A DNA stretch of 64,000 nt, taken from Azolla caroliniana. Lineage: Eukaryota; Plantae; Polypodiophyta. Below are positions 1,041 to 42,487 of this stretch, piece by piece. The DNA lies in assembly GCA_043228905.1 (NCBI GenBank), contig JBHGNT010000009.1:8928001-8992000 (forward strand), written 5' to 3'. Each line of letters begins with the position of its first letter. The first letter of the stretch is position 1. The position numbers and the translations under genes are program-made. The notes under the pieces are model-generated. The model did no database searches. It saw only the letters and a list, made by a program, of their open reading frames with translations, and was not told where the DNA came from.

Positions 1041-1223
1041 TTTAGCCCCCCTCCTTGTGTGTTAAGCAAACCATTTATGGTGACCCTAAAAAAGAAAATG
1101 AAAAAATTCCTTCACCTTATGGTAGGCTATAGACAAAAACCCCGTTAAGCGGTGGGAAAAAAATTCACTCCTACATAAACAAAAATTTAAAACATGGCAA
1201 CGATATGAAAGGAGGATCATGAA

Positions 1224-5973: not shown

Positions 5974-6076
5974 ATTGAAAAGCCATATTGGCTAAAAATA
6001 AGACTTTCCAATAATATAGAAATAATCCGCCTTCCCTCTGATACAAAAAGAATCGACCCTCCCTAGAGCGCCAAAA

Positions 6077-7645: not shown

Positions 7646-8462
7646 ATGGGGACCAACCCAAATGACAACATTTGGTGGTTGCCGATACTACGTGACATTC
7701 ATTGATGATTTCTCTAGGCACACCTAGATATTCCCAATGCGGTAGAAGAGTGAAGTGTTCTCGCACTTCCAAAAATTCAAAAACGAAGCCAAAAAGGCAA
7801 CGGTCAACATGTCTGATGCCTTCGATTGGAAGGAAACAAGGAGTATTTCTTAGATGCCTTCACAACATATCCTCGACAAGAAGGAATTTGGTGGGAGTTC
7901 ACTTGATGACACACACCTCAGTAGAGTAGAGTGGCCGAACAAAAGAATTGGCATATACTCGAGGTGGCAAGGGCAATGATGAATGAGAAACATCTGCTGA
8001 GATCATACTAGGTTGAAGCATTGAACACGACTGTCTATCTAATGAATCATTGCACAACATCTAGAGTACACTATGTCACCCCCCACGAGAAGTTCTATGG
8101 AAAGAAATCAGACCTATTCCACGTCAGGATATTTGGCTAGATTGCATACGTGCACATTCCCGACGAAAAGCGGCAAAAGCTAGATCCCAAGTTGAAGAAA
8201 TGTATCCTCATGGGGTACTCACTCGAATAAAAAGGGAATAAATGCTTCAACCCCTCTACCAAGAAGGTATGAGTGAGTAGGGATGTCATATTCAACGAGT
8301 CAACATCTTGGTACACAGTTGACCTAGCTCCATCTGATCCAATCGAAACCGATTTCGATGTAGAATTGAAGGAGGATGACCGACTAAGGCTCATGCCAGA
8401 GGAGAGTCCAATCTCAACCAAGCTGAGTGGACCGCAGGAGCCTCTAAATGACCAAATCACAT
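7646..8462 (+). mobile_element. Copia K integrase fragment (host of gypsy J)
   Basis: WGPTQMTTFGGCRYYVTFIDDFSR...SRDVIFNESTSWY; same family as the D integrase at 34330-35000. Confidence 0.8.
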
Positions 8463-9179
8463 TGTCGTGAAGGATTCCGGCCATAGAGAGAAACAGAGCC
8501 AAGAACACGCGAGTGGGTGTGTGCACCAATGCATATGAATAAAGTATTATGTACAAACATAATGTAAATAACATAGGACTAGTAAGTACTAGGTAGTAGG
8601 ATTTAATGAGGTACTTTAAAGTCCCACACGCATAGAAAGAAATCAAGGGGGGGGGGGGAGGGGATCTCTGACACCGATCACGATGTAAATGTCTCCCCTT
8701 GTGCTATAAAAGGGGAGGCTTGAGCCTACTTTACGGGGGGGACGAAAAAGGAGAACGAAGTGCTATCGGTTTGAGTGCCAAGCTCTCTCTCTCTCTCTCT
8801 CTCTGTTTGTGTTTTGTGTTGATTCAGGAAGAAGGTGAAGCCTCTGCTCGTGCAGGTAGCCCGTGAGCTCCCGACCAGAGGTTCATCATTCTGTGTGCAT
8901 TTATGGTGGATGTAATTCAAAGTCCCACAGTTGGCTGAGTCCGGTTGTAATCCTTTCGATCAATTATTTAATCTATTCGTCTTCATTTTGTTCGATTGCT
9001 CTATGTGTGTTGAGAACGCATCCCCATCCCATGACTGTTTGTCCCTCGCGTTTGGCCTGAGCCTTGTGTTGTGTGCTCACAGTTGTCATCTGGACGGGCT
9101 TCCTACTCCCTCTAGCTCCTTCGTTCGAGACCCCCGTGGTCCTACCCGTTTCAACATGTACCCGTAGAAAACCGCGACA
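8463..9179 (+). repeat. 5' LTR of gypsy J
   Basis: Inverted termini TGTCG/CGACA, TATAAAA near 8706, followed by PBS; 3' end resembles the LTRs of element I. Confidence 0.8.
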
Positions 9180-9183
9180 TCTT

Positions 9184-9201
9184 TGGTGAACCCGACGTGA
9201 A
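9184..9201 (+). promoter_or_regulatory. Primer-binding site complementary to tRNA-Trp 3' end
   Basis: TGGTGAACCCGACGTGAA is the reverse complement of the plant cytosolic tRNA-Trp 3' end as I recall it; identical copies at 30654-30671 and 40935-40952 (minus). Confidence 0.8.
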
Positions 9202-9664
9202 AGGGGCAGTAGGGGAGTCTGAAAATGAGGGGAAGTGAACTCGTTGAAGCGATGGTGGTGGTTGTCGACCGCTTGGTTAACGCTTGAGAGAGGACTAGTG
9301 GCCTCGATAGGGCCGTGGAAACAGTAGTCGGCATGGCATGGCAGGTTGATTCAACGGAAAGGACGTCAAAAACTACCTGGAGGCTTTCAAGGCTGAGACA
9401 TTGATGAGAGATGTTCTGGATGATAGACGGTTGTATGCGTTCCGATGGGTAGTTACGCCGAACATCCACGCAGAATTGCTCGAGATGCAGGCTACCTACC
9501 GAACTTGACAAGAGTTTGAGGAGCGGCTCCTCGAAAGATACAGTTTTGATAACTCGCTCCGCTTATTGAAGAAGGAACTAATGGAGTGGGTGGAGAGCCA
9601 TGGGAAGGGGAGGAACACATCGGTGCTCCTCCAAGAGTTCGAAAGACGATTCGCGTGGCTCTCA

Positions 9665-12600
9665 TGTTGGGAGACAGGTCCCTCCGGATGGGAAGGGAGA
9701 AGAACAGTGCCGACGAACAAACTCGGCTGAGGCCGACAGGCCGATGCCGAACCGGTATGAACCGGATGGGGAGTACCCGACTGCGGAGAACCGGATGTTG
9801 TAGGCCCGGTATGAACTGAATGGGGAGTACCCGACTACAGAGAGCCGGATGGGAGCCCATCGAAGCTACATTTGTAAATAGCCGAAAAGTCATATTAGTA
9901 TAAATATGACTTAGGGTAATCTTTTATGAGTGCGGTCGTTTTTTTGTTGTTGTTATTCTTCCTTGTTGGTGCAAGAAGAAGAGAGAGCGCGTAACTGTAC
10001 AGAGAGAGAGAGAGAGAGACGAGGTCGTTGCTTCTGTTGTAACCGCCGCCTGTGGCGAAGATCTGAGATCACTGAGGTTGTTGCCTCAGTGAACTCACTG
10101 TTGTATATTCCTACATAGTGACAGTTTGCAGCCTGTGGGCTGCCGTGGTTTTTCCCCTATTTTGGGGTTTTCCACGTAAACCTCCTGTGTACCCTTTCTC
10201 CCCTCTGTGTCGCGTTTCATTACTTGTTTTTCTGTGTATGAAAAGAATCTCGGTTGTGGCCGAGCGTCGGATATAAGGAACATCGAGTTCTCGTCAAGTG
10301 GTATCAGAGCGAAATCGACACAGAAAATGGACGAATCGTTTGGCGGCATGTTCAAGCTCACCGGCTCCAACTATTCAGTGTGGAAGTCGAAGATGAGGGA
10401 CATGCTCGTGGTTAAAGACCTCTGGCTGCCGGTTTAGTTCGGAGACAAGAGACCGGACAAAATCGACGCCGCGATATGGGAGGTGATGCACATGAAGACA
10501 ACGGCGTACATATGGTGCTTCATCGACATGAGCCTGTACAACAACTTCAATGAAGAGAGCAAGGCTCATGAGCTCTGGGAGAAGATCGGCATAATGTTCC
10601 AGAACAAAAATGCTGTCAATCAGGTGTCGGTATTCCGGAAGCTAGTAAGACTCCGGTACCAAGATGGCTCCAGCATGGCGGAGCATATGAATGCCTTCCA
10701 GGGGCTGATCCACCAGGCAACGTCATTGGAAGTACCTCTTGCTGATGAGGTCCTAGCGCTACTCCTGCTCGGTTCCCTCCCGGATAGCTGGGAGACGTTG
10801 GTTGTCACTTTGGGCAACGCCGGGCCGGAAGGAAAACGGTTATCCCTAGCAAGAGTAAAGTTGAGCTTGCTAGATGAGGAGGCTCGTCGGAAAGACAAAG
10901 ATACGAGCTCCGACTCTAAAGCGCTCCTTACTGAATCGGAACGCGGAAGACATAGAAACCGTAGTCCCCAGAAGCGGGAGAAGTCGGGGACACGGTCAAA
11001 GTCAAGGGGGAGGCCTACTTGTTTCTATTGCGGCAAGCCGGGACACTTCCAAAAGAACTGTCGGCATTTCCGAAAAGACAAGGAAACCGACGGTACCGAT
11101 TCGAAACAAACCCCGAACCGGAACGGTACAGACCGGAACGGTAAAGACCGGAGGGGGCCGGACCGGAAGGGAACGACGACAATTGCGGCAAGTGAAGAGG
11201 AGTTGATGCTCATCACCGAGGAGAGTGAGATAAACCATGCCGGCGACGAGATGACCTGGGTGGTAGACTCCGGAGCGTCGTTCCACCTTACCCCGGACCG
11301 GAAATGCTTCTCATCCTACTCAGCCGGTGATCATGGTTGTGTCCGGATGGGGAATGAAGGAACATGCCGAATTGTCGGCATAGGAGACGTGTGGCTGACA
11401 ACACCAACCGGATGCAAGTTGCTGTTGAAGGATGTCCGACACGTTCCGGAAGTTCGTCTGAACTTGATATCAGCTGGTCGGCTAGATGATGAAGGCTACA
11501 CGGGTAGCATCCGGAACGGTGTCATGAAGTTCAGCAAAGGGAGCCTGATTGTGGCTCGGGCCCGGAAGGTAAACACACTGTACCTGATGAATGCCCGGTT
11601 ATGTCCGGAAGAAGTGAACGTGGCTTCCGACACTGCCGGTGAGCTGTGGCACAAGAGGCTATGTCACATGAGTGAGAAGGGGATGAAGAGGCTTGGAGAC
11701 GACAACCTCATTCCAGTGAAGAACGTGCACTTAGAGAAGTGCACTGATTGTCTGGCCGGTAAGCAGAACCGGACCCCCTTCCGACCAAGGCCACCGATGA
11801 GACGTAATGCACTACTGGAGTTGGTGCATACGGATGTTTGTCAAGTAGACACGAAGTCACATGCCGGAGCGCAATACTTCATGACGTTCATAGATGACCA
11901 CAGCCGGAAGCTGTGGGCCACACCGCTGAAGACGAAGGATCAGGTGTTATCAGTCTTCAAAGAGCTCCATGCGAGGGTGGAAAGAGAAACCGGCCGGAAG
12001 CTGAAGGCGGTTCCTAGCAGATAACGGAGGAGAGTACCGGGGGCAGTTCGAGGAGTACTGCCGCTCGAAGGGAATCCGGCTCGAATTTACCGTGCCGAAG
12101 ACGCCGGAACTAAACGGACTGGCCGAGAGGATGAACCGGACCATAATGGAGAGGGTCCGGAGTATGCTAGCGCATGCAAAACTACCCAAGAAGTTTTGGG
12201 CTGAGGCACTGTTGACGGCGACATATGTGATAAACAGATCACCCTCAGTACCCTTGGACGGAGACACGCCACAGAGAGTATGGACCGGTAAGGAAGTGTT
12301 CTACCGGCATCTGAGGGTGTTCGGGTGTCTCGCGTACGTGCATGTAGCAAAGGACCGGAGAGGAAAGTTAGATCCAAAGACCCGACCATGCATATTCCTC
12401 GGTTACGGTGACGATGAGTTCGGCTACCGAGTGTGGGACCCGGTCGACAAGAAGGTATTCCGGAGTCGAGATATTATCTTCATGGAGGACAAGACGCTCG
12501 CCGACTGGGAGTCGGAGAAGAAGGTACTGAACTCCGAGTCGACCGGTAAGGATAGACTCTACAATGAGCAGACCCAACCGGCAAGAGACCGGTTAGCACT

Positions 12601-15033
12601 CGAGGAACCAGCCGGTTACGGTGAGGATACCGAACCAGCAGAAGAAGAAGTAGAGGAAGCTGAGACCGGAACCGGTCAAAACCCCGAATCGGATTCGGAT
12701 GAAGAGCAAATGGAGGAACCGGTTACCGAAGCCCGAAGACGTAGATATCCTCTCAGAGAGAGAAGGGCGCCCCGGAGATTTCTGGATGCAGAGCATGTCC
12801 TGCTGACCGATGAGGGGGAGCCGGAAAGCTTCGAAGAAGCGAAGGAAGACACCCACAGCCGAAAATGGTTAAGTGCCATGCGGGATGAGATGGATTCCCT
12901 GCATGAGAACCATACGTACGAATTGGTGGAGCTGCCGAAAGGAAAGCGGGAACTCCGAAACAAGTGGGTGTTCAAGTTGAAACCGGGAGATGCCGGCAAC
13001 CCCCCGAGATACAAAGCTAGGATCGTGGTGAAGGGGTTCCAGCAGAAGAAGGGCGTGGACTTCGACGAAATATTCGCCCCGGTAGTAAAGATGACCTCCA
13101 TCCGGACGGTGCTGAGTATAGCAGCAAGCATGGATCTCGAGGTAGAGCAGCTGGACGTGAAGACGACATTCCTCCACGGAGACCTCGAAGAGGAAATCTA
13201 CATGCAGCAACCGGAAGGATTTGTGGAGAAAGGGAAGGAGCACCTGGTATGCCGGTTGAAGAAGAGCCTGTACGGACTGAAGCAGGCTCCCCGGCAATGG
13301 TACCGGAAGTTCGACTCCTTCATGACCGATCAAGGGTACCATAAGACACAGGCCGATCACTGCGTGTTCGTGAAGAAGTTTGAAGGAGGGGACTTCCTGA
13401 TACTTCTCCTGTACGTGGATGACATGTTGATCGTCGGACGAGACCAAGGCAAAATACGGATGCTGAAGAAGGCTCTCAACCGGACCTTCTCAATGAAAGA
13501 CTTGGGTCCGGCAAGACAGATGTTGGGGATGCACATCATTCGGGACCGGTCAGTGAAGCAATTATGGCTGTCACAGGAGAAGTATGTGACAAAGGTGCTT
13601 CACCGGTTCAACATGTCAGATGCAAAACCGGTCGGATCGACACTTCCGGCAAACTGCAAGTTGTCCGGCAAGCGAAGCCCGAAGACAAAAGGAGAGAAGG
13701 CAGATATGATGAAGATTCCATATGCCTCTGCCGTCGGGAGCTTGATGTACGCAATGGTTTGTACCCGACCGGACATTTGATACGCAGTCGGAGTGGTGAG
13801 CCGGTTCATGAGTAATCCCGGCAAGGAGCATTGGAACGCAGTCAAATGGATACTCCGGTATTTGAAGGGCACTTCAAATATGTGTCTCCGATTCGGCTCC
13901 GGGAAACCTCAACTGGACGGTTTCACCGATTCGGACATGTCGGCTGATGTGGATACCAGCCGGTCTACATCCGGGTATGTGATGACATATGCAGGGGGAG
14001 CTGTTTTGTGGCAGTCGAGGCTGTAGAAGACGGTTGCACTGTCAACCATAGAGGCGGAGTACATGGCGGCTGTAGAAGCCGGCAAGGAAATATTATGGAT
14101 GAAGGACTTCATCGGAGAGCTCGGTATCCGGCAAGAGGAATACCGACTCTACTGCGACAGTCAAAGTGCCATCCACCTTGCTAAGAATGCGGTCTACCAT
14201 TCCAGGACGAAGCATATCCAGCGGAGGTATCACTGGATCCGGGAAAGGGTAGATGACCAGGAGTTCACACTGACGAAGATCCACACGGCCGAGAACGGGT
14301 CAGATATGCTGACCAAAGTGCTGACACCCGACAAGCTGGACGCATGCCGGAAGAGGATCGGGCTGGAAAGACACCCCATGCCGGAGTGAAGGGGGAGTTT
14401 GTTGGGAGACAGGTCCCTCCGGATGGGAAGGGAGAAGAACAGTGCCGACGAACAAACTCGGCTGAGGCCGACAGGCCGATGCCGAACCGGTATGAACCGG
14501 ATGGGGAGTACCCGACTGCGGAGAACCGGATGGTGTAGGCCCGGTATGAACCGAATGGGGAGTACCCGACTACAGAGAGCCGGATGGGAGCCCATCGAAG
14601 CTACATTTGTAAATAGCTGAAAAGTCGTATTAGTATAAATATGACTTAGGGCAATATTTTATGAGTGCGGTCATTTTTTTGTTGTTGTTATTCTTCCTTG
14701 TTGGTGCAAGAAGAAGAGAGAGCGCGTAACTGTACAGAGAGAGAGAGAGAGAGAGACGAGGTCGTTGCCTCTGTTGTAACCGCCGCCTGTGGCGAAGATC
14801 TGAGATCACTGAGGTCGTTGCCTCAGTGAACTCACTGTTGTATATTCCTACATAGTGACAGTTTGCAGCCTGTGGGCTGCCGTGGTTTTTCCCCTATTTT
14901 GGGGTTTTCCACGTAAACCTCCTGTGTACCCTTTCTCCCCTCTGTGTCGCGTTTCATTACTTGTTTTTCTGTGTATGAAAAGAATCTCGGTTGTGGCCGA
15001 GCGTCGGATATAAGGAACGTCGAGTTCTTGTCA
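9665..15033 (+). mobile_element. Full-length Ty1/copia element A (Tork/Tnt1-like)
   Basis: LTRs 9665-10296 and 14400-15033 (about 11 substitutions plus one GA indel by eye); TSD TCTCA; iMet PBS TGGTATCAGAGC 10299-10310; PPT GAAGGGGGAG 14388-14397. Confidence 0.96.
10327..14389 (+). pseudogene. Copia A gag-pol polyprotein, disrupted
   Basis: Start MDESFGG; zinc knuckle CFYCGKPGHFQKNC; PR WVVDSGAS; INT; RT YVDD; RH. Stops at 10435, 13778 and 14024; frameshift near 12015. Confidence 0.93.
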
Positions 15034-16348
15034 TCTCAGAGCTGGACCAGACCGTGCTCGACATGAGCAATGTCCTATTGTTTATCAAGTTGGTCGATCC
15101 ACTCAACCGAGCAAAGGTGTGTCTCCTATTGGAGACAGATGAAGGGCTCACGGCTGATTGGGCTGTGGTAAAGAGGGTATGTAGCCATTTTGACAAATGG
15201 TGAGAATGGAACGATGTGGCGTCATCGACGACCGGCCCGGGTGCTGGGAAGGAGCCAAAGGGACGTATTCCAGCACGAAAAAAAGAGACACGAAGGTGGC
15301 TTGAGTCGGGCATTGTTCCAACTGACGTGGTCAAGGGCCCATCCGGGGGCACAACTCTAGAGGAGTTGACAAAGATGGTGCGCGATCTCCAGATTGCGCA
15401 AGCTCGGAGAGATGGCGGGGGACAATCGTGTGACCGGAGGCCTCCAGTAGACCAACAATGCATGTGGTGCGATGTCGTCAACCACATCTGAAGAGAGTGC
15501 ACCGATTTTGCAAAAGCACTCAAGAACAATGTAGGGTACCTCTGGAACGGATGGGTACATGTGTGCGATACATGAAGGCCCCTCGAAGTGAATACCAGAC
15601 GAGGTGACATGAAGAGGATAATGGAGGAAGCCGTGGCCTGGAATGCTGGGGCCATCCACTACTCAGTGTTGGCAGGGATCCAAGTAGGCGAAGAGAAGGG
15701 CGACCCATCTGGAAGCAATACCGGATTTGTTGGGAATCAACGCTTCGATTCACCTTCACCACTCGGCCACAACCGAGTAAGCGCGAATCAATGGAGCAGA
15801 AAATAGGAACCACAAAGAGAAACAAAACGCGAACATACAGGGATTAACGTGGAAAACCCTAGACGGGAAAAACCACGGGAGTACAGGACTCCAAACCAAC
15901 ACTATACAGAGAAGTATACAATGGCGAGCTGCAAGGCGACGACCTTGAGCTCGCTGTCCTCGCCACAGGAGGCGGAAATACAAAGAGGCGTCGTCCTCTT
16001 CCTCTCTCACGCTCTATCTCTCTCTCTCTCTCACGGTTGCTCCCTCTTCACTCCTCTTGAGTGGAAAAACAGAAAAATGATTAGCAACAACAAAGCTGTT
16101 TGCCCTAAGTCATATTTATACATATATGACTTTGGGGCTATTTACAACTATAGCCTCAGGGGCCCATAGCGAACATATTCACGGATATGTCCCTGCATCC
16201 GGATCGCTCTCCGGGTACATTCGTCATCCGGCACCGAAGCCGGGGTCTTCAACATCCGGATCCGAAACCGAAACCGGGCTCGTCGGCTTTCATCTCCGAC
16301 ATCCGACCATCCCATCCGAAGGGATCATAATCCCAACAAACTCCCCCT

Positions 16349-17941
16349 TCACTTCGGCATGGGATGTCTTTCCAATCCGATCCTCTTCCGGCATGCTTCC
16401 AGCTTGTCGGGTGTGAGGACCTTGGTCAGCATATCCGATCCGTTCTCGTCCGTGTGGATCTTTGTCAGCACGAACTCCTTGTCTTCTATCCTTTCCCGGA
16501 TCCAGTGATATCTTCGTTGGATGTGCTTCGTCCGGGAGTGATAGGCCGCGTTCTTAGCAAGGTGGATTGCACTCTGACTGTCACAGTAGAGTCGGTACTC
16601 CTCCTGCCGGATACCGAGCTCTCTAATGAAGTCCTTCATCCATATTACTTCCTTGCCGGCTTCAACAGCCGCCATGTACTCCGCCTCCGTAGTTGACAGC
16701 GCAACCGTCTTCTGCAGTCTCGACTGCCATGAAACAGCTCCCCCTGCATACGTCATCACATACCCTGATGTGGACCGGCTGGTATCTGCATCAGCCGACA
16801 TATCCGAATCGGTAAAGCCGTCGAGTTCGGGCTTACCGGAGCCGAATCGGAGGCACACGTTTGCCGTGCCCTTCAGGTATCGGAGTATCCACTTGGCCGC
16901 GTTCCAATGCTCTTTGCCGGGATTGCTCATGTACCGGCTCACCACTCCGACTGCATATCCGATGTCCGGTCTCGTACACACCATGGCGTACATCAAGCTC
17001 CCGACGGCTGAGGCATACGGCACTTTCATCATATCCTCCTTTTCAGCCTTTGTCTTGGGACTTTGCTTGTTGGACAGCTTGCAGTTTGCCGGGAGGGTCG
17101 ATCCGACCGGTCTTGCTTCCGACATGTTGAACCGGTGAATCACCTTCGTCACGTACTTCTCCTGTGACAGCCACAACTGCTTCTTCTTCCGGTCCCGGAT
17201 GATGTGCATCCCTAGTATTTGCCTCGCCGGACCCAAGTCCTTCATTGAGAAGGTTCGGTGAAGAGCCTTCTTCAGCATCCGTATCTTGACCTGGTCCCGT
17301 CCGACGATCAACATGTCGTCCACGTACAGGAGGAGTATTAGGAAGTCTCCTCCTTCGAACTTCTTCACAAACACGCAATGGTCGGACTGCGTTTTGAGGT
17401 ACCCTTCGTCGGTCATGAAGGAGTCGAATTTCCGGTACCATTGCCGGGGAGCCTGTTTCAGTCCGTAAAGGCTCTTCTTCAACCGGCATACCAGGTGCTC
17501 CTTCCCTTTCTTCTCGAATCCTTCCGGTTGCTGCATGTAGATCTCTTCATCGAGGTCACCGTGAAGGAATGCCGTCTTCACGTCCATCTGTTCTACCTCG
17601 AGGTCCATGCTTGCCGCTATGCTCAGCACCGTCCGGATGGAGGTCATCTTCACTACCGGGGCAAATATCTCGTCGAAGTCGATGCCCTTCTTCTGCTGAA
17701 ACCCCTTCACCACGATCCTGGCTTTGTATCTCGGGGGGTTTCCGGCATCTCCCGGTTTCAGCTTGAACACCCACTTGTTTCGAAGTGCCCGCTTTCCTTT
17801 CGGCAACTCCACAAGTTCATATGTGTGGTTCTCATGCAGGGAATCCATCTCGTCCTGCATGGCACTCAACCACCTGCGGCTCTGGGTGTCGTGCTTTGCT
17901 TCTTCAAAGCTCTCCGGCTCCCCCTCGTCGGTTAGCAGCAC
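16349..17941 (-). CDS. Copia B reverse transcriptase-RNase H (530 aa), separated from the upstream ORF by a 1-bp frameshift
   Basis: KARIVVKG, LYGLKQAPRQW, YVDDML, FTDSD, RTKHIQRRYHWIRE; frameshift in the G5 run 17965-17969. Confidence 0.93.
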   Translation of the reverse strand: MLLTDEGEPESFEEAKHDTQSRRWLSAMQDEMDSLHENHTYELVELPKGKRALRNKWVFKLKPGDAGNPPRYKARIVVKGFQQKKGIDFDEIFAPVVKMTSIRTVLSIAASMDLEVEQMDVKTAFLHGDLDEEIYMQQPEGFEKKGKEHLVCRLKKSLYGLKQAPRQWYRKFDSFMTDEGYLKTQSDHCVFVKKFEGGDFLILLLYVDDMLIVGRDQVKIRMLKKALHRTFSMKDLGPARQILGMHIIRDRKKKQLWLSQEKYVTKVIHRFNMSEARPVGSTLPANCKLSNKQSPKTKAEKEDMMKVPYASAVGSLMYAMVCTRPDIGYAVGVVSRYMSNPGKEHWNAAKWILRYLKGTANVCLRFGSGKPELDGFTDSDMSADADTSRSTSGYVMTYAGGAVSWQSRLQKTVALSTTEAEYMAAVEAGKEVIWMKDFIRELGIRQEEYRLYCDSQSAIHLAKNAAYHSRTKHIQRRYHWIRERIEDKEFVLTKIHTDENGSDMLTKVLTPDKLEACRKRIGLERHPMPK

Positions 17942-22062: not shown

Positions 22063-22132
22063 GGATTTTTAGAGAGGACTATCAAGGCGTGGGGCCGCGA
22101 TAGTCTGAACAACCGGAAGAATCCCCACACCT
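22063..22132 (+). promoter_or_regulatory. Putative -1 programmed ribosomal frameshift signal in gypsy J
   Basis: G GAT TTT directly before the gag-PR stop TAG; 6-nt spacer; stem 1 22076-22083/22099-22106; stem 2 22085-22094/22123-22132; the -1 frame joins pol across insertion D. Confidence 0.65.
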
Positions 22133-22464
22133 GTACCATAGGAAGGAGATTTTGGTCCTCCGTGTTGAGAATCAAACTCAACTTCCTATAGAAATAGGTT
22201 TCACACTAGCTCATGGACATGCCAGACTAGTTTTGTAAATAGTAGAAAGGGCCCTTGCCCTAGTTTAGTTGGTATTTAAACCAACCTTTTGTAACTTTGT
22301 TATTGTTGGAAGCAATACATAGTTTTCTCATCTTAAGACTCTCTCTCTCTCTCTCTCTCTGTCTATTTCTCATAAATGCTCATACACACACAGACACACA
22401 GAGTCCTACCGCTGTATACAATCACTCTCCTTTCTTTACATGGAATCAAAGCATGTGGTTTTCT

Positions 22465-29749: not shown

Positions 29750-32700
29750 TGTCATGATGTTTTTGACACATAGTGCGAAACCACCCTCAAAAGAGAGTAA
29801 AGTATTCCAAATAAACTAATATTGCAAAGTCAACTTTTGTAATAAATGATGAAAAGATAGTAAGGTAGAAGTGGTTTTTCAAAAGTAGATAAAAATAGAA
29901 AAAGTAAGAGAAAAAAAAAACACAAGGCGTGGAATTAAGGAGCAAGGTAGAGAAAAAAGCTCATAATTTCCTCATTCGATGTCCAAATTAGACAAGAAAA
30001 TATCCATAAGAAAGCTAACTCAAAGGGCTTTCCAAAAAAAACATGTATGTCTAATTTGGACTTAAAAAAATAAAATAATGATAGAAATAAAGCGCGATTC
30101 ATATAGACAAGCTTTTGTTTAGGAGAAAAATAAAGCAAGCCATAGAAACCCTATAAATAAGAGCTATTCTTAAGAAGAAGGGGGGAGATGGATAGGGATT
30201 TGAAGAAGAAAAGATTTATGTTTCCTCTGTCATACTCTTAACCCTAAAGGGGGATATAAAAAAATCATGTATCAAAATAAGTCCATTATATGGATGATTT
30301 AGTAATAAAAACTTTCTATGTTTCCTCTCTCATACTCTCTTAATTTAAGTTTTGCTTACGTATAGATATAATTTAGTGCTATTCATACTCTCTTACTCTA
30401 AGCGTTCTTACTCATAAGCAAAATTAATCATTATTCGATCTTGCATATTCCCTTACTCGAAGATTTGTCTATGCATTAATATAATTAAGTATTATTCAAT
30501 TTCTCATACTATCTTACTCTTATTTGAGGGAAATATCTCGTCTTAAAACTTAAAGTGCATAAATCCTTAAGCCCTAAATCCTTCTAGTCCAGAACCCCGG
30601 CGGTTCCGCCTCACGATCCGCACTAGCTGGCGGATTTTCACGACATAATAAAGTGGTGAACCCGACGTGAAGACAGGTGGCAAGGAGATGGAGAATCAAC
30701 AAGAGGCGATGAACACGATGATGATGATGTTCAAGCGGATGCTACAAGAACAACGAGCGATGTCGGAGATCAGGACGACAATAAAGTGGCTCGTACAACG
30801 AAATGGACAATTCAACGGAAAAGATGTGGCACACTATCTACGTGACTACAAAGCGGAGATGATGCGATGTGGGATACCAGAAGGATTGCAAGTGATATCC
30901 TTTAGTTGGGTGGCCACGGATGAGGTACAAGAGAGAATCCACAAGATATGACAACAAAACCCGACATGGGGGTCCTTTGAAGAAGCCTTACGAGAGCGAT
31001 ATGACTATGAGAGACCTAAGGGACGAGATCAACGCGAGTTTGACCAATGGGTGGCATCAACGAAGATCCACCAAAGCGTGACACAAGCATTCCTAGAGTT
31101 CAAGCATCATTTTGCTTGACTCTCAGAGCGGGAACAAAGATTGGTGGGGGAGGATAAAGCCCTAATGTTTGTAAGATCGATTGATCGGAACGAAAGGATG
31201 GACATCGGGATCGAACTCGACGATGATGACGGTGCAAATGGTCTTACCGAGGATTGGGTTGAAGTCAAAAGAGTATGCTGAAGACATGATAAGAGGAAGA
31301 TGAGAATCTCATCGGCTACAACATGGCCTATAAGGGATGATCGATTGAGGATGAATGATGTGTCCGAAACGGATAAGACCGATGACTTGAGAGTGGTGAA
31401 CACCACTTCAAGGGTGGAAGAAGGTTTTGGGATACGAGTGTCCGAAACATCTAGAGAGAAAGTGGTAAGCATAATCGATGCTTGCATGATCGAGGGAGAT
31501 AAAGAGTGTGAGGCGGATGTGATTGAGGAGGTAGCCACGAAAGCTGACATCGAGTCGGAGGTGGCTATGAATGAGTCAATGGCGGATGGCCTACGTGAGA
31601 CTTTCCCAACACTAATTCTAGAGATTTCGGCGGTTGTGTTCGAAAGGTAACGTGAGACCGAAGAGACGGAAGGTGGTGGAGAGAAAACAAAGGTCGACGT
31701 CGATGCATACGACAGAGAGATAGCCGAGAAGGTGGCTATGGGTGAAATGACGGGGGATGGAAATACCGAGGATTCCTACCCACTAATTCTAAAGACTTCG
31801 GCGGTTGTGTCCAAGAACCAATGTGAGACCAGAGAGACGGGAGATGGCGGCAAGGAAGGTAAAGTCGGAAGCCGGTTCGGATGGAAGATGATTCGTCCGA
31901 AATCCCAATCTAAACGAAAGTCGAACCAAGCAGAAGTGGATTCGGCCGAAATCCGATCGGTCGAGCCCGACCCGGATAGAAATCGTTCTAGTCGGAATCT
32001 GATCGAACGAGACCGATCCGGACAGAAGTTAATCCAGTCCAACTGGAAGTCAAACCGGTTGAATCCGGTGAACACGAGGAAAAGAAAGCTAACACAGACC
32101 AAAATTGATTGATTGAACCTAACTCGGAAGGGCCGACTCAGTCGACAACGATCAACCGAGTCTGATTCAGCCGAATACAAATCCAATCGGAAGTCAATCC
32201 AACCGAAAGCCGATCAGACAAGACTAATCCAGAAAAAGGTCAAGGTTGAACACAAGAAAGAGGCAAGGAAAAGACACTACCACGGATGACAAGGGCCAAG
32301 CGGATTTGAAGGGTGTTACTAACGATGAGATCTCAACAAAGAAGGAAGGCTCTAACGGGAAGAACGTAAACACTAACGTGAGATTGTATGATGAGAGAGA
32401 ACGAAGAATATGGTGGATCGGATGGCGACAATGGTTCGGGTGGAAAGAATGGATGTGCTCAAAATGGAGAGACAAAGTCGACATAGTGGGACAAACAAAG
32501 GATATTACGGATGAAGAATAATGAGCTCCGACAATTTTGGCACATACCGGAGGATGTGCGGGTTCGGAGGGGGCGAGTGTCGTAGTGTATTTCGTACACT
32601 ATGTGAAAAACGTATAAAATAACCGATTAAATAAATATGAAGAAAAAGAAAGAAATATCAAAATATATATTACATGCATAGGGCAAAATTAGAACCTTGT

Positions 32701-33356
32701 ACCTCCATGTTAATAATTTGAAGTCTTAACCACTACACTAACACATCAAGAGTATAAAGCAAATATCCCACATAGAAAGGTTATTTCATGCATATTTTCT
32801 AGGAAAAAGCTTTAGTTAGAAGAAAAACGCATGATAGAAAAAAGCGACACATGCACGTTTAGCGTGTATGAACACTATAGTCCATAAAAACGCATGAGGT
32901 TAGAAAAAGCATAATCACTTTTAGAAGAAGCATAATAGAGAAAACATATAATCTATAGTTAGAGAAAAAGCATGGATTGCTAAGACTCTCTCATCACTAT
33001 ATAAGGATGGGGAGCACAATGTAATAAGGGTGTGAAATCTTTTGGAAATTGGATATATTTCTAATAACATCAATTAATAAATTATATTCCTGGGATTCAC
33101 GAAATAAACTATACTCGTGGGATTCACGAGGTTTCTATATCTATCTCTTTCAATCCAAATTCATAATCTTATCTTAATATTGATTAATCTAATAAAATAC
33201 ATTATACTCGTGGGATTCATGAGGTTTTTATATCTCTTTCTTATAATCTATTCATATTCATAACTAGATTAGCTTCAAATTCTTCCTCCTCCTAGTCCAA
33301 AACCCCGGCGGTTCCCACCCGACTCACGCAACGATCTGGCGCCGAAAGGCATGACA
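29750..33356 (+). mobile_element. Non-autonomous gag-only gypsy element F (tRNA-Trp PBS) with discordant LTRs
   Basis: LTR-like 29750-30645 and 32578-33356; PBS 30654-30671; PPT ~32567-32577; gag remnant GQFNGKDVAHYLRDYKAEM; no PR/RT/INT seen; 4-bp TSD CTAA/CCGA. Confidence 0.8.
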
Positions 33357-33577
33357 CCGATAGAGCAGAATGTGAGCAAAGGGATCCTGGATGTCATACA
33401 TTCAGATGTATGGGGTCCGGCCTAGACAACCACACTCGGCGGATGCCGATATTACGTCACATTCATCAACGACTTCTCCAGGCACTCCTAGATCTACCCG
33501 ATGAGACAGAAGAGCGAATTGTTTGGACACTTCCACAGGTTCAAAGCTGAAGTCGAAAAAACTATGGGTCGGCACGT

Positions 33578-34327
33578 TATCACGGAAATCCGTGTATGCG
33601 TGTCAGATAGGACGGAACCATGGGGGTCTTCGACTAAGGAGTAAGAGGAGGGAGAGAAGCTTGGGAGTTCAACCGAGAAGGAAGAGAAAGATTAAGATTC
33701 AAGAGAATAAGATCTAAACAAGACAAGATACATTATAGAAAGGACCACACCAATTACAATTGTGGCCGTGTAGGCCGAATGTAAACCCTCTAGATGAAAC
33801 TCTAATCGGATAGGGGAAAAGAAGAAGAAGACGAATGAAACCCCTAAAACGAGATCCTAAAATCCAAATTTCCAAAACCCTAATGGCAACCCAAAGAAAC
33901 CCAAAAAGTGGAATCCCATAAAAAATGGCCCCTCACTCCCTTTTATAGTAGTAAGGGGTGAGGCACATTACATAAAGACGAGGTCAAACCCCCCTTCTTT
34001 AAATGGGGGAATATTTGGCCTTAATCTTAGGAGGAGAGATTGATGGAGCCTTAACTCCCTCTCCTCACACACACACACTATGCCCACTACTCACTACACC
34101 CGTACTTCATGTACTCTCCCTTTAGTCTACATGTGCATGTGCACATAAGTGCACATCACATTTACACTTTATGAATCTTCGTAGTGCACTTTTAACACCT
34201 TACATTTACCCTTCCTTTTTTACATTTGTTTCTTTTACAAATCTTCCAAGTGCATGTGCAATGTTGCACATCCCCATTTTATCCATCCCACTTGGTTTTC
34301 TCACCATGGCCGAAAATCCGCACAACA
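33578..34327 (-). repeat. Solo LTR H
   Basis: 750-bp insertion in the D integrase (GRH|IRCLR); minus-strand termini TGTTGTG...GTGATA; TATA on minus strand; 4-bp TSD ACGT/ACAT. Confidence 0.7.
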
Positions 34328-36436
34328 ACATACGCTGCCTTCGATTAGATGGAGGCAAAGAATATTTCTCGGATGAGTTTACAGCGTATCTCCAAAAGGA
34401 AGGAATTCAACGAGAATTTTCATGCCGTCACACACCTCAGTAAAACGGCGTAGCCGAGCGGAAGAACCGACACATAGTAGAGGTTGCACGGGAAATGATG
34501 AACGAGAAGAACCTGCCGAAATCATACTGGGCAGAAGCGGTGAACACGGTTGTATACCTCATGAACAGGTGCACAATCTCGGCAGTACACGATGCAACCC
34601 CCCAGGAGAAGTTTCTTGGTAAGAAGCCGAACTTATCACATGTTCGTATTTTCGGCTCAATCGCTTATGTGCATATTCTCGATGATACGCGACAAAAGCT
34701 CGGCCCGAAGTCGGAGAAATGTATCCTCGTGGGGTACTCACTCGAACAGAAGGGGTACAAATGTTACAATCCATCTACCCGAAAAGTTCGAACAAGTTGA
34801 GATGTTGTTTTCGACGAGTGCGCATCCTGGTACACACTAGAGCCAACTTCGACTCCGACTCCGACTATGACTCCACTTGACCCGGAATATGCCGAAATAG
34901 AGGCAGAAGCCGAAGATCGACTCACACGAATGTTCGAAGAAAGCCTGATTACGACAAGGCTTAGTGGGCCACAAGAACCTCTGAGTGATCAAAGCACTTC
35001 TCGGCCGAGTTGGAAGCTAGACAAAGGGAAATTTTCCATGCCAGAGTATGAAGACGATCACTTCGACAGCAACGAATCGACTCACTCCCTCGATAGTGAG
35101 TTCGAAGGCCTCAACATCCGGACAAATGGAGCGAAGAAAGCCTTAGTATCCATGAACAAAAAGGTACGCCGATCCACCCGAGAAAAGAACCCCCTCGTAA
35201 GCCATTACGGCTACGACGAGTACATGACGTATCATTACGCCTTTATAATGAAGGTAGCGTCAGTACGGGAGCCGAAAACTCTTTCCGAAGCCGTAAAGGA
35301 TCTGCGATGGGTCGGCATGATAAATGAAGAAATGCAAGACCTATGCAAAAATGAGACATGGGATCTCGTTCCTCACACTCCACACAAGAAAGCGATTGGT
35401 TGCCGATGGATTTACAAAGTGAAACACAATGCCGACGGCTCCATAAATCGCTTCAAAGCACGGCTTGTTGTGAAAGGATATGCACAAATGCACAGAGTTG
35501 ACTACGAAGAGACCTTTGCCCCAATGGCAAAGATGACAACTATGTGAACCGTGGTTGCAATCACAGCAGCAAAAGGATGGAACCTCCATCAAGAACGCCT
35601 TCCTCCAAGGGGAACTGGAGGAGGAAGGGTACATGATCCAACCACTTGGCTTTGAATCACACCATCATTCGAATGCGGTGTGCTGACTCAAGAAGCCCCT
35701 CTATGGCCTCAAACAAGCACCGCGTGCGTGGAATTCGAAGATCATGTAGTATCTTCATCAAATCGTATTTTGGATGTCAAAATCGAATAATTCTCTGTAC
35801 ATCCGAAACGAGTCGGATATCCCAATTGTCATCATCCTATACGTGGATGATTTGGTCATTGGAGGAAAGGATCTCGCCGAGATTAACAAGGTCAAATCAC
35901 GTCTCTCCGGTAGATTCGAAATGAAAGACCTGCACGAGCTCCATTATTTCTTAGGCATCGAAGTAATTAGGACACCAATCATGAAAATGATCTCACAATG
36001 ACACTACATCCTCAACTTACTTTACAAGTTCAGCATGACGGAGTGCAATCCTGTGTCCACCCCGCTTGACCATAATCTCAAACTTGATGTTGATTCCGGA
36101 ACAACCGAGTGCGAGCCAACTCAGTATCGCCAATTGATTAGCAGACTCATTTACCTAACCATTACGTGACTCGACCTCAGCTATTTGGTCGGCCTACTTA
36201 GCCAATTCATGTAGAATCCGTGAAACCTTCATCTTGATTACGCTAAGAGGGTACTTCAATGCGCCAATGGTACGATGGATTATGGCATTAGATACAGGTC
36301 AAATATGATAATTCAACTCGAAGGGTACACAGACGAGGTGTCGCGTTATTACGCGCGTGCGTGTAGAAGGGCAGGACCACGGGGGTCTCGGACGAGAGAG
36401 GAAAGGATGCCAAGAAGCCAAAACACGAGAGAGAGA

Positions 36437-36482
<46 letters not shown>

Positions 36483-36781
36483 ATGTGCGCGCTACACTGA
36501 CTCTTATGCACGAAAACAAAAGGGGTGGAAACACCCGACACTACCAGAGACGCGGATGCGCACAACCAAGCATATATATATATATATATATATTACAATG
36601 GAAGAGATACAACCTCAGCTTCGAGCCGGACCAAGGTAGGTTACAACATCAGTTTGCTGCCAAGCCGCCGATCGGGGAGCTCTCGGGCTTGTCGCGCCGA
36701 GCTGGGTCTTGCACAGGGGACCAACCAGAAGCAAACCCTAAACAGACACAAACTCTCTACCCACGTGACGACGAAGAAGAA

Positions 36782-36858
<77 letters not shown>

Positions 36859-37427
36859 AGAAGAAGAAAGAAACTACCTAACCCTAAACCTAACGGTATA
36901 CCCTCCAACACAAAATGGGCAACTCCTCTACAAGGGACCATCCCTTCCTTTTATAGAACAAGGAGAGGGATGCATTACAATGTGGGATAAATCCCGATTT
37001 ACATGGGATTCTTTGTCTTGACTTGACTCCCACTCGGCACCATAAAGGCACCCCTATTATTCACACATTTATACAAGGGTGAGTGCACATGATGCAGTCC
37101 GCCGATTCTCTCGATATTCTCTGATTCTGCCTAGGGACGGTTTTCTCCACGACATCTGCCCCCACCTAACCACACATCGATGGCCTAAACACTATCCCAT
37201 TCCCATGCTTGCTTTGGCCCTCGATGGCCACACGCACGTCTTTTGTTCCGCTTTCGGGTGTGCCCCTTTCCGGCTCAGCACACCGCTCCTTAACAGGGTG
37301 TCCCCGACAGCTCATTGGAAGATCACCCTTGCCGCATCCTGGCCTGCATAGCCTCCTTTCACGCAATGCCTTGTTTGGTCGGTGCCTCTGTTGTTGCCGC
37401 CTTTGTCCCCTTGCCGCCACCTTCCAT

Positions 37428-38250
37428 TACCCTCGGCCTCACGTTGCCCCGACTCGTTACCCTCGGTCTCACGTTACCCTCGGTCTCACGTTGCCCCGAA
37501 CAGCCGGGGTCTCCGGACAGGTGTGAAGGATCCTTCTTGGGCCTCCATCTTGTTGGGTCACCGACTCGTGTGCCAAGTGCGTCCGATCTTTGTCTTGCCA
37601 ACCCTACTGCTCGGGACTGTATCCGGTTCGTGGCCGCCTCACCGACCTCATACCTCCTTTCTGCTCTACCTTCATCGTCCGATCACGTTCTCCTGCCGTC
37701 ACCATCCTTTCCTATAAGACTCACGTCGGCTCTTGAGCCGACCACCAGATCGGTGTGAGAATCTCCATGGGACCTCCCCTTTTGGCGTCTCGGTTTCCCG
37801 CCTTGTCGCCGCCACCATTCTTCTCTCTAGATCTCACGCCGGCTCTCGTTGCCGGTTGCCGGAGTCTCGAGAACTAGTGTGTGTAAGGTCGTGGCAGCAC
37901 TGCTTGCCGTTTTCCCGACCTTTGCGTCGGCCTCTTCTGCTAGTCACGTTCACCTGCCAACACCGATCTCTCCTATAGGACTCACGCCGGCACTCGGGCC
38001 GACCGCCGGATCGGTGTGAGGATCTCTGCAGACCGCCATCCTGTAGTCACATTCACCTGCTGCCACCGATCTCTCCTATAGGACTCACCCGGCACTCGGG
38101 ACAACCACCGGATCGGTGTGAGGATCTCCGTGGACCGTGCCTTTTTCAGTCCCTTTTGCCTTCGTCCCCTCGCCGCCACCGTTTGCTACTCTAAGTCTCA
38201 GGCCGGCTCTTGGGCCGACCGCTAGAGTCTCTAGAACCGGTGTGAAGGAT
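37428..38250. repeat. Tandem repeats in the internal region of element I
   Basis: ~17-bp units TACCCTCGGTCTCACGT (37428-37495) and ~110-bp units containing CTCACGCCGGCACTCGGG...GGATCGGTGTGAGGATCTC (37716-38250). Confidence 0.75.
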
Positions 38251-39407
38251 CCTCCTCGGGCCTCCATCTTGTCTCTGACCCTTACCCCGGGTCGTCTTTG
38301 TCCGCAAGTCCATAGGGTGGCTCGCTCCACACCCTCCCCCGTGCTCTCGACGTACCGTGCTCCCGACCTCTTCGTAGGCCCGCTCTCTCCCCTCTCCCGG
38401 ATTGGTTATCCGGAAGTCCGCTCCGCCTAGTTCTCGTCTGGGACCACCAACCCTTTTAGTGGTGTCGGTGGAAAGCATCCGCTTTGTGATCAACCAAGCT
38501 CGCCTAGGCTTGATTCTCCAATGTCTGGAGTTTCGACTCTAGTGCCGACCTTGCCGGACTCGTTCTGAACCCTTGATCACCTTCCTTCCAATTCCCGACC
38601 TTCGCCCGGTTGGTCTTTCTCCCCATGTAAAAGAGGGCGGCTCGTTCCTCACCCTCTCCCGTATGGGCACCCTCATGCTGATTCTGGCCCCAGTCGAACA
38701 ATCCACGACTAGATCGTGCTCCAACCGAATCGGAGTGTCGCGCGGTACGGTCCCTAGTCGGGTCGTTTCTTGGTCTCTTCTTCGACCTTCTCGTGAGCTA
38801 TCTCCCATCCATCTTCGTTGGCATCGTGTCAGGACTCCTCGATACCGTCATCCATCTCCTCAGTCTCACATGGGTGTATGGGCCCGAACGCCGAGTTCTC
38901 CGGATTTGGTCCTGCAGGCTCTTGTTTGTTCCTTCCTCGTATCGTTTCACCGGTGATTCTCGGTCTCACGCAACCACCTTCCTCCTCTTGGGACTCACGT
39001 GGGCACTCGGGCCTGACTGCCATCGTCTCGAGAACAAGTGTGGGAAGATGCGAAGAATCGCCCGTTCGTTTTTCGCCCTTGTCCGTAGCCACCGACTCGT
39101 GGTCGGTGGTTGTCTTCTTACCGATCGCGCAAGCCCTGCCTGGGCCCGCTTCTCCAATGTCCGGGGTTTCGGGCTGACGTGCCCTAAACCGATGGTCCCA
39201 ATGTTCCGATTCTACGATCGATATCTCAGCCTCGTCCTCGGCCGTTCTATCTCCGCAAGTCGAGAGGGCGTTTTGTTTCGCATCCTCTCTCGTGGTACCG
39301 TGGTACCGATCTTCTGCCTTCTTGTGGGGCAAGTTCGTCTCCTCGGCCTCGACTCGCGGCCTTGATCTTTCCTCTTCCTCGAGCATCGCCTCGAGAGCTG
39401 CATACAT

Positions 39408-40247
39408 TGTTGTGCCTCTCGGCGCCGGATCGTTACATGAGTCGGGTGAGAACCGCTGGGGTTTTGGACTAGGAGAAAGGAGATCGTGAGATAGAGATTA
39501 ATTATGAGTAGATAGCAAAGAGAAAGATAAGAAACTCGTGAATCACACGAGTATACTATATTAATTGGTACTTAGGTTGTTAAGAAAGAAGTAGATGCAT
39601 AAATCGTGAATCCCACGAATAATTTTTATATTGATCAATACTTAATCCAAAAAAATAACCAAACCTTATACATCTTTCTCTCCTCCTTATATAAGGATGG
39701 AAGAGGCTAAGCATAGCTTCTTGCTTTTCTAAAGTGTTAATGCTCTCTAAATTTGCATGCTTTACTTTTCCCACTACAATTTCCTAAATTTAGCATTCAT
39801 GCCCGCTAGATGTGCATGCGTAATTTTATTAGTGTACATATAAATAAAGTTTTCACGCATTCTAAAAATGCATGACTTATCTTTTAATAAAGGTAGGTGA
39901 AAATAAAGGTTTTATAAGTATTTAATCTATATTTGAAACACTTAGAATAAGTTAGTATAATGGTAAGGCTGAAGTTTGTCTGCGTGGAGGTGCAGGGTTT
40001 GAATCCTACCCTATACACGTAACAGAAATTTTAATGTTTCTTTTATTTACAATTGTGTCTCTTCATCCCGTAAGAGACTCTCACCGGCCTTCTTCATCTG
40101 GCTCTTCCTTGCCGATTCCTCCTTGCCGGTTTACCGATTCCTCCTTGCCGGTTTGCCTTTTCATCCGGTTCTCACCGGGTATTTCATTCTCTATCCGGAT
40201 GGACAAATTGCAATTTCCACGTAGTGTGTAAATTACACACTACAACA
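39408..40247 (-). repeat. Solo LTR G (same type as the 3' LTR of F), nested in I
   Basis: Minus-strand termini TGTTGTAGTGT...GGCACAACA; shares CTAGTCCAAAACCCC.GCGGTTC and ACCCGACTCA with 33293-33356; flanks ACAT/ACGC. Confidence 0.8.
39945..40015 (+). other. tRNA-like segment (A-box/B-box) inside LTR G; homologue at 32679-32745 (minus) in the 3' LTR of F
   Basis: GTTAGTATAATGGTAAG...GGTTTGAATCC at tRNA-like spacing; F copy GTTAGTGTAGTGGTTAAG...GGTTCTAATTT. Confidence 0.5.
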
Positions 40248-41042
40248 ACGCCTCTGCAATCCTGGTCCCGAAGCCGAGCCTTAACGACTCTCTTTTCCGT
40301 TCGACCTCTTCCCATTGTGATGGCACGCCGTCGCGCACCTTCCCCTTAGCCTTCTCGGCTTGCTCATCATCTAGCCATTGGCACACCCTTCCGACCTTCG
40401 ACTAGTCCTTGGTGAGGCCATTCGCTCCGTCCTCGTCTTCGAGCTCAATCCTGATGGCCTCCCGTTCCGCTCGGTCGATCGACTTAACGAACAACAGGAC
40501 TTTGTTCGCCCCCACCAAACCTTGTTCCCACTCCGGAGCCAAGCAAGCCGTCGCTCGAACTCTCGGAACGCCTTCGTTGCGCCCCAGTGGGTCTTTCCCG
40601 ATGCTACCCACTGGTCGAAGCCACGTCGTCCCTGGTTCTTCTGCCGTCCCCAATATGCATGCATGAGCGCCTCTTCGAAGGCCTCCCACGAACTATGAGC
40701 TTCTCGGAGCTCCTTCACTTCCGCGTGCATACGGACGACGACGACCCGACAGAAGAACTCCAGCCTCAACGCCTCAACTACGTCTTGCTCCTCCATTTCC
40801 GCGTTGTAGGCTTCCAAGTAAAATAGGACTTTGTCCCCGTTGAAACGACCGACACTTTCGACCACTCACTCAACCGCTTCGACAAAAAGTTGCGCCAAGT
40901 CGTCTTCTTCCAGCTCCATTCTCCCTTGCCGCCCTTCACGTCGGGTTCACCAAATATGTCGCGTTATTATGCGCGTGCGTGTAGAAGGGAGGGACCACAT
41001 GGGGTTTCGGATGAGGGAGGAAAGGATGCCGAGAAGCCGAAA

Positions 41043-41077
<35 letters not shown>

Positions 41078-41174
41078 ATGTGCGCGCTACACTGACTCTT
41101 ATGCACGAAAACAAAAGGGGTGGAAACACCCGACACTACCAGAGACGTGGATGCACACAACCAAGCATATATAT

Positions 41175-41218
<44 letters not shown>

Positions 41219-42487
41219 CAATGGAAGAGATACAACCTCGGCTTCGAGCCGGACCAAGGTAGGTTACAACATCAGTCTGCTGCCAAGCCGCCGATCGGGG
41301 AGCTCTCGGGCTTGTCACGTCGAGCGGGGTCTTGCACAGGGGACCAAGCAGAAGCAAACCCTAAATAGACACGAACTCTCTACCCACGCGACGACGACGA
41401 CGACAACGAAGAAGAAGAAGAAGAAGAAAGAAACTACCTAAGGGTATACCCTCTAACACAAAATGGGCAACCCCTCTACAAGGGACCATCCCTTCCTTTT
41501 ATAGAACAAGGAGAGGGATGCGTTACAATGTGGGATAAATCCCGATTTACATGGGATTCTTTGTCTCGACTTGACTCCCACTCGGCGCCATAAAGGCACC
41601 CCTATTATTCACACATTTATACAAGGGCGAGTGCACACGATGCACTCTGCCGATTCTCCCGATATTCTCCAATTCCGTCTAGGGACGGTTTTCTCCACGA
41701 TAGCGGATTGGGCAAGTTATAAAGCGGATAGACGGTCAACATCAAGATTTCATCTTCTCCCTTGGCAACGGGGCAATCTCATGAAGTAGCAAGACACAAC
41801 CGACAGTCGCATTGTCGAGCACGAAGGCCAAATACAGGGGTGCGGTGGTTGCCGCGTGCGAACCCGTATGGCTCAAGCATATACTGAAGGATCTGGATGT
41901 ACCCATCAAGGATTCGATTCGTCTATGTTGCGACAACATGAAAAGTATCTACCTGACATGGAACCTCGTATTCCATGTGCGAATTAAGCATGTTGAAGTG
42001 CACTACCACTTCATCCGCGAACGCGTGTAGGCCGGAGATATAGACTTACACCACATCAACACGAATCTACAAGTAGCCGACATTTTCACGAAATCCCTGG
42101 GTTTCGACAAGTTACGGCAGTTCGTGTCAAACCTTGGCCTATCTATTGCCGACTAGCCCAGCATGAGGGGGAGTACAGAATAGTGAACCGATCGATTGAT
42201 CAAAGCCGAACAAGGAGTACACAACCGAAAAGCTGAACAATCAAAGTTCGACGCGTTCTGAAGACCGATCCGAAACAATTTTTCGATGTCCGTAAGTTGT
42301 GTTCGAAGGGGCGTGTTGAGAATCTAACTCAACTTCCCATAGAAATAGGTATCACACTAGCTCATGGACATGCCGGGCTAGTTTTGTAAATAGTAGAAAG
42401 GTCCCTTGCCCTAGTTTAGTTGGTATTTAAACCAACCTTTTGTAACTTTGTTACTGTTGGAAGTAATACATAGTTTTCTCATCTTAA

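What the first reader, a model, noticed from the sequence alone, without database searches (positions are those of the whole stretch)
8459..41706. Trp-primed gypsy group makes 4-bp TSDs that all reconstruct to N-CG-N: possible CpG-targeted integration
Seen TSD pairs: F CTAA/CCGA (29746-49, 33357-60); H ACGT/ACAT (33574-77, 34328-31); I GAGG/GCGG (36335-38, 41703-06); G ACAT/ACGC (39404-07, 40248-51). J has only its left flank, ACAT. For F, H and I the host copia reading frame is restored with exactly 4 duplicated bases. In each pair one copy has CG at positions 2-3, and most mismatches are C>T or G>A changes. Copia A, D, E, M and the Tat element have ordinary 5-bp TSDs. Inference: the integrase prefers CpG-centred, possibly methylated, sites and so is steered into other transposons. 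Only four pairs, none perfect, and H is assigned to the group by TSD alone.
Basis: partly seen in the sequence, partly recalled or inferred. Interest (0 to 1): 0.72.

Follow-up and report, generated by a model that had tools for sequence, protein, structure and literature searches.

The report
Fern retrotransposons that insert at CG
A large group of jumping genes in this fern genome inserts almost only at CG pairs and duplicates four bases; this habit is already published for the moss Phygy retrotransposons, to which the group likely belongs, and whether its integrase also senses DNA methylation is untested.

Summary
All four window pairs are as stated, and uninterrupted paralogues of each host show exactly a 4-bp overlap. 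Of 80 Trp-primed loci sampled, 23 had a perfect 4-bp duplication; all 23 were N-CG-N and none was 5 bp. Genome-wide, 5,988 of 8,171 LTR starts not preceded by the purine tract follow CGN (73%; background CpG 2.2%). An empty allele in a public run confirms one site. Neumann et al. 2019 list Phygy as 4 bp (NCGN), tRNA-Trp, no extra domain, and these elements match that. Not found in my searches: a fern host, a sharper V-CG-B motif, back-to-back insertions into duplicated targets, and element F as a two-family hybrid joined at the primer site. Methylation sensing is untested. The bias toward repeats (20 of 23) does not differ significantly from Met-primed controls (11 of 16, p=0.23). The scan noted NCGN duplications before, in a probable fungal genome.

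The parts
8459..8462 (+). J left flank ACAT (likely a decayed CG target; no right partner)
8463..9179 (+). J 5' LTR (TGTCGTGAAG...CGCGACA)
9184..9201 (+). J primer binding site, tRNA-Trp type
   Evidence: tRNA identity from the finding and from recall
9222..22160 (+). J gag-protease, broken and split by insertions at 9665-15033 and 15728-21065
   Evidence: tblastn and blastn
42617..45392 (+). J pol (RT-RNase H-integrase), degenerate, truncated inside the integrase; no 3' LTR
   Evidence: groups with the Trp-primed copies in the RT tree
29746..29749 (+). F left TSD CTAA (two transitions from CCGA)
29750..30645 (+). F 5' LTR, from family 'F5'
30654..30671 (+). F primer binding site; the family switch maps here
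30672..32577 (+). F internal region (gag remnant, no pol match, purine tract at its end), from the G-like family
32578..33356 (+). F 3' LTR, G-like family
33357..33360 (+). F right TSD CCGA
33574..34331 (-). H solo LTR 33578-34327 with TSD ACGT/ACAT; its family carries the Trp PBS elsewhere
36335..41706 (-). I, element without a pol match, 36339-41702 (5' LTR 40957-41702, PBS 40935-40952, 3' LTR 36339-37154, LTRs 94% identical), TSD GAGG/GCGG
39404..40251 (-). G solo LTR 39408-40247 nested in I, TSD ACAT/ACGC

Best explanation
These are tRNA-Trp-primed, chromodomain-free Ty3/gypsy retrotransposons of a fern, likely of the Phygy lineage, that insert into N-CG-N sites with a 4-bp duplication, likely because their integrase reads the CG sequence itself. 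Shown: the 4-bp stagger; the central CG; avoidance of T before and A after the CG (V-CG-B); decay of the duplications at methylatable cytosines. Inferred: a 4-bp stagger needs a sharp bend at the central step, which favours flexible pyrimidine-purine steps as in retroviral intasomes (PMC4422553, abstract), and base contacts by the integrase narrow this choice to CG. Inferred: nesting follows from CpG being concentrated in young transposons, plus survival or chromatin bias shared with other elements. Each insertion duplicates its own target, so later copies can land directly next to earlier ones.
For: 23 of 23 perfect TSDs among 35 automatic calls from 80 loci are N-CG-N, and 0 are 5 bp. Two more found by hand are GCGC and CCGG. 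Met-primed control: 18 of 25 resolved have perfect 5-bp TSDs; after dropping 2 duplicated loci, 2 of 16 contain CG. Genome-wide 5,988 of 8,171. T first in 1 of 64 (34% expected, p 1e-10), A last in 2 of 64 (35.5% expected, p 6e-10). Empty allele in run X3 lacks the element plus one 4-bp copy. Pol is RT-RH-INT with no chromodomain, aRH or other extra Pfam family at E<=0.01. Gag-protease homologues with DUF4100 occur in Physcomitrium patens, Riccia and Adiantum. Phygy row of Neumann's Additional file 5. CG-centred 4-bp targets also occur in Ginger1 and in the Drosophila ZAM group, CGCG; that flies largely lack CpG methylation is recalled.
Against: No REXdb Phygy domain sequences were available (Additional files 1 and 3 were too large to read), so the clade is not tested against reference members. 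Full-length copies are 6.9-8.1 kb, at or below the Phygy range of 7.7-10.0 kb. No integrase residue was tied to the CG preference. Insertion flanks are richer in CpG and repeats than random CpG sites (p 0.006 and 1e-4), which sequence preference alone does not explain. 45 of 80 loci were unresolved, and the sample comes from one 11-Mb stretch of one contig.
Confidence: 0.75

Rival explanations
1. The integrase prefers methylated CpG and so homes to silenced transposon DNA without a chromodomain.
For: 20 of 23 young insertions have repeat DNA on both flanks, against 183 of 400 random CpGs. Flank CpG is 5.5% against 3.8%. Elements decay at CG and CHG. A 1992 paper on CpG methylation affecting retroviral integration in vitro appears in the reference list of PMC5408687 (title only).
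Against: Met-primed controls show a similar repeat bias (11 of 16, p=0.23 against the Trp group). One young copy sits in single-copy AT-rich DNA (its methylation is unknown). No reader domain was found. The repeat library was built largely from these elements' own neighbourhoods, which inflates the contrast. No methylome was available.
Confidence: 0.13
2. A host factor that binds CpG or heterochromatin tethers the integration complex, and the CG motif comes from the tether.
For: Regional bias toward CpG-rich repeats beyond CpG availability.
Against: The CG sits exactly at the centre of the cut in 23 of 23 cases, with a symmetric V..B preference and little signal further out. That pattern points to the intasome itself; tethers usually give regional, not single-base, placement (own knowledge).
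Confidence: 0.07
3. The elements are TatI, the other plant lineage with tRNA-Trp priming and a 4-bp TSD, or an unnamed sister lineage rather than Phygy.
For: TatI is listed as 4 bp (100%) and tRNA-Trp (75%). No reference-based tree was possible.
Against: TatI requires an aRH domain between protease and RT; none was detected in two copies, and by eye the ordinary RNase H keeps its acidic catalytic residues. NCGN is reported only for Phygy. The positive control for aRH detection was weak (E=0.004 in the window's broken Tat-like element).
Confidence: 0.08

Closest known systems
Phygy, non-chromovirus Ty3/gypsy (Neumann et al. 2019, PMC6317226; passages and Additional file 5 read)
   Same: 4-bp TSD with NCGN, tRNA-Trp PBS, no chromodomain or aRH, polyprotein filling most of the internal region. 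Phygy nested in other elements is noted in P. patens (PMC6911290, passages).
   Different: Described there as specific to P. patens; annotated since in the liverwort Apopellia (PMC12885004, passages). Here the host is a fern, copies are slightly shorter, there are many LTR families, and the motif resolves to V-CG-B.
TatI (same paper)
   Same: 4-bp TSD, tRNA-Trp.
   Different: Has aRH in 100% of members and no NCGN preference is reported; no aRH was found here.
Ginger1 DNA transposons (PMC2836005, passages)
   Same: Gypsy-type integrase; 4-bp TSD CCGG (75%) or CCGT/ACGG (24%).
   Different: Cut-and-paste DNA transposons of animals with a narrower motif; here ACGT is the commonest target.
Drosophila errantivirus subgroups gypsy, ZAM, Idefix (PMC5408687, passages)
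   Same: LTR elements with sequence-specific palindromic targets, one of them CGCG.
   Different: Insect lineage with different motifs.
Prototype foamy virus intasome (PMC4422553, abstract; closest solved integrase, E 4e-20)
   Same: Preference for a flexible pyrimidine-purine step at the centre of the site, stronger for short TSDs.
   Different: Weak preference for any such step, not near-strict CG.

Membership tests
Phygy | 4-bp TSD | tested here: met
   23 perfect 4-bp, 0 perfect 5-bp among 35 calls; paralogue overlaps; empty allele
Phygy | NCGN target | tested here: met
   23 of 23; 5,988 of 8,171 genome-wide
Phygy | tRNA-Trp PBS | tested here: met
   5,561 exact 17-mers; the group was selected by this PBS; match to tRNA-Trp is recalled, not looked up
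Phygy | Gypsy order RT-RH-INT with no chromodomain and no aRH | tested here: met
   Pfam on two copies
Phygy | Size 7.7-10.0 kb, coding region filling the internal part | tested here: inconclusive
   Full-length copies are 6.9-8.1 kb; two ORFs fill the internal region
Phygy | Clusters with reference Phygy RT/RH/INT in a tree (the primary definition) | not testable with these tools
   Reference sequences unreadable. Indirect only: P. patens gag-protease homologues at 33-41% identity; one clade with Riccia proteins, far from the genome's other gypsy RTs (quick tree)
TatI | [quoted passage not shown] | tested here: not met
   No RVT_3 or RNase_H hit at E<=0.01; positive control weak
Chromoviruses (Tcn1, Galadriel) | Chromodomain; self-priming or tRNA-Met | tested here: not met

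The most novel reading that the evidence does not exclude
The integrase of this lineage is itself a methyl-CpG reader. It cuts around methylated V-CG-B sites and so steers a chromodomain-free retrotransposon into already silenced DNA in mosses, liverworts and ferns, turning the host's silencing mark into its address.
Probability: 0.13. Interest if true: 0.75.

Novelty: new member of a known kind. Interest (0 to 1): 0.27.

Why it matters
Plant LTR retrotransposons rarely choose a target sequence; Phygy was the one exception in Neumann's survey, mentioned in one sentence and one table cell. This genome offers thousands of sites, recently mobile polymorphic copies and a refined motif, so integrase sequence readout and any methylation dependence can be tested with a methylome. 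It also extends the trait from a moss to a vascular plant. Annotation tools that assume 5-bp duplications would miss these elements.

Tried and rejected
Chance or misplaced boundaries: rejected. Preference for inserting into its own group (6 of 23 against 5 of 400): not claimed, because I shifted 5 of the 40 background stretches away from loci already fetched, which removes Trp elements from the background. A second empty-allele test (L083) showed no bridging contig among the rows listed; the host there is repetitive. No methylome: none of the 14 runs listed has a library description, and all laid runs were contigs. Naming the unnamed pol homologues to find a moss reference failed, and the ESM Atlas gave only generic gypsy clusters. 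A search for more hybrids like F among 12 unresolved loci with a downstream LTR found none with a matching TSD. ACG-specific methylation by moss DNMT3b (PMC6453930, passages) was considered as a link to the ACGT preference; it allows no test here. The careful tree did not finish; only the quick tree was seen. One intasome paper was not held. Literature searches: 'NCGN' with 'target site duplication' gave only Neumann 2019; 'fern genome' with 'Phygy' gave 0; searches listed nothing on fern Phygy targets. Subscription papers and Repbase were not searched.

Full report
Observation. To test the duplication length independently, I aligned the left and right host flanks of each insertion to uninterrupted paralogues among the fetched loci. 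Every usable alignment gave a 4-bp overlap: F 3 of 3, H 4 of 4, I 3 of 3, G 23 of 23 (some G rows overlap). H's LTR family carries the Trp primer site in 5 of 29 other fetched copies, so H belongs to the group. J is the outermost element: its gag is split by later insertions, its pol lies at 42617-45392, and it ends inside the integrase.

Genome-wide test. The 523-Mb genome holds 5,561 exact primer-site 17-mers. I fetched 80 of the first 84 on contig C1. The script paired LTRs at 35 loci and left 45 unresolved; 3 of the 35 were mis-called. Of the remaining 32, 23 have a perfect 4-bp TSD and all 23 are N-CG-N; none has a 5-bp TSD. Of the 9 imperfect pairs, 8 keep CG in one copy and 4 differ by one CG transition. 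Perfect pairs fall with age: 14 of 17 at 99% or more LTR identity, 8 of 10 at 97-99%, 1 of 5 below. As a control I fetched 40 of the first 44 Met-primed loci (presumed copia; domains not checked): 25 resolved, 18 perfect 5-bp, 0 perfect 4-bp, and 2 of 16 non-duplicate TSDs contain CG. Pattern counts agree: 11,714 LTR starts TGTCGTGAAGAW, 3,543 after the purine tract, and 5,988 of the other 8,171 (73%) after CGN, against 2.2% CpG in 400 kb of background. One contig of run X3 spans a young insertion site and lacks the element plus one 4-bp copy, a direct empty allele.

Motif. Among 64 CG-centred 5' flanks, T precedes the CG once (34% expected) and A follows it twice (35.5% expected), so the target is V-CG-B with ACGT commonest. 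In the genome-wide listing, 4 of the first 100 rows end in A (hand count). Element F's CCGA is one of the rare types.

What the elements are. Full-length copies of 6.9-8.1 kb have two ORFs: gag-protease with a DUF4100 match, and RT-RNase H-integrase with no chromodomain or aRH hit. Named pol relatives are from the liverwort Riccia (63-69% among the best hits). Gag-protease relatives include P. patens, Riccia and Adiantum proteins. In a quick RT tree the Trp-primed copies, J and the Riccia proteins form one clade far from the genome's other gypsy RTs. A host Ca-ATPase has fern proteins as its best named matches, so the host is a fern; this rests on one gene. Neumann et al. 2019 state that Phygy elements prefer NCGN (passage) and list them as 4 bp (100%, NCGN), tRNA-Trp 81%, no extra domain (Additional file 5). 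TatI shares the primer and TSD length but needs aRH. Membership in Phygy is likely but untested against reference sequences, because Additional files 1 and 3 could not be read; they may also hold the V-CG-B detail.

Mechanism. Shown: stagger, motif, and decay after insertion; transitions between paired LTRs run at 0.047 (CG), 0.048 (CHG) and 0.012 (CHH) per site. Inferred: retroviral intasomes favour a flexible pyrimidine-purine step at the centre, more strongly for short TSDs, and add base contacts (PMC4422553, abstract); a near-strict CG would need such contacts. Ginger1 and the Drosophila ZAM group show that gypsy-type integrases can choose CG-centred targets.

Steering and methylation. Both flanks are repetitive for 20 of 23 Trp insertions, 183 of 400 random CpGs, 96 of 400 random positions and 11 of 16 Met insertions. 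CG targeting therefore roughly doubles the chance of landing in a repeat. The remaining excess does not differ significantly from the Met group (p=0.23, small samples). The library came largely from these elements' neighbourhoods, and 5 of 40 background stretches were shifted off fetched loci, so the contrasts are inflated. One young copy lies in single-copy DNA of 35% GC. Methylation of targets before insertion was not measured.

Side results. Of 116 genome matches for an LTR-like end close to an LTR start, 100 were listed. By hand, 41 rows (37 distinct junctions) have a 4-nt spacer, against 5, 13, 6 and 8 for spacers of 5-8 nt; the 26 rows with 3 nt are expected because A is the commonest first target base. 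Five of 6 fetched 4-nt junctions have an identifiable LTR on the upstream side. Insertion into a previous copy's duplicated target is the likely cause; double insertions are known in other systems (listing). F carries a 5' LTR of one family and the body and 3' LTR of another, switching exactly at the shared primer site, yet sits in one 4-bp duplicated site. Plus-strand transfer between two co-packaged genomes is my preferred reading; tandem insertion followed by recombination is the rival.

Verdict. Real, strong and largely known: a fern member of the Phygy-type CG-targeting gypsy lineage. The fern host, the refined motif and the large testable set of sites add modest interest. Absence from print rests only.

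Noticed in passing
window 29750-33356: Element F has LTRs of two different families, with the switch exactly at the shared tRNA-Trp primer site, in a single 4-bp duplicated target; possibly intermolecular plus-strand transfer.
   Followed up: partly
G000, e.g. L151, L159, L162, L164, L168: LTR - 4 nt - LTR junctions (head-to-tail and head-to-head): 37 distinct among 100 listed rows, mostly N-CG-N spacers.
   Followed up: partly
L076:707-8008 and L072:1994-9293: Very young copies (99.7-100% LTR identity) with non-matching flanks: L076 has a 36-bp host duplication, and L072's two ends join different N-CG-N sites of a copia host. Possibly uncoupled joining of the two ends.
   Followed up: partly
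window 8463-45392: One Trp-primed element (J) is the base of a nest at least four levels deep; it ends inside its integrase, where a copia 3' end follows near 45393.
   Followed up: partly
window 386-6978: Tat-like gypsy on the minus strand with a weak aRH hit and internally duplicated LTR segments; TSD probably GTATG.
   Followed up: no
window 48857-49728: Tandem array of about 159-bp units.
   Followed up: no
L135, L136, L137 (G000:C1:7.70-7.76 Mb): The same Met-primed insertion (TSD TATTC, same flanks) occurs three times about 21 kb apart: a local segmental triplication.
   Followed up: no
L038:284-1909: Runs X3, X6 and X7 carry extra letters at 1216/1217 (32 nt in X3) that the assembly lacks.
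   Followed up: no
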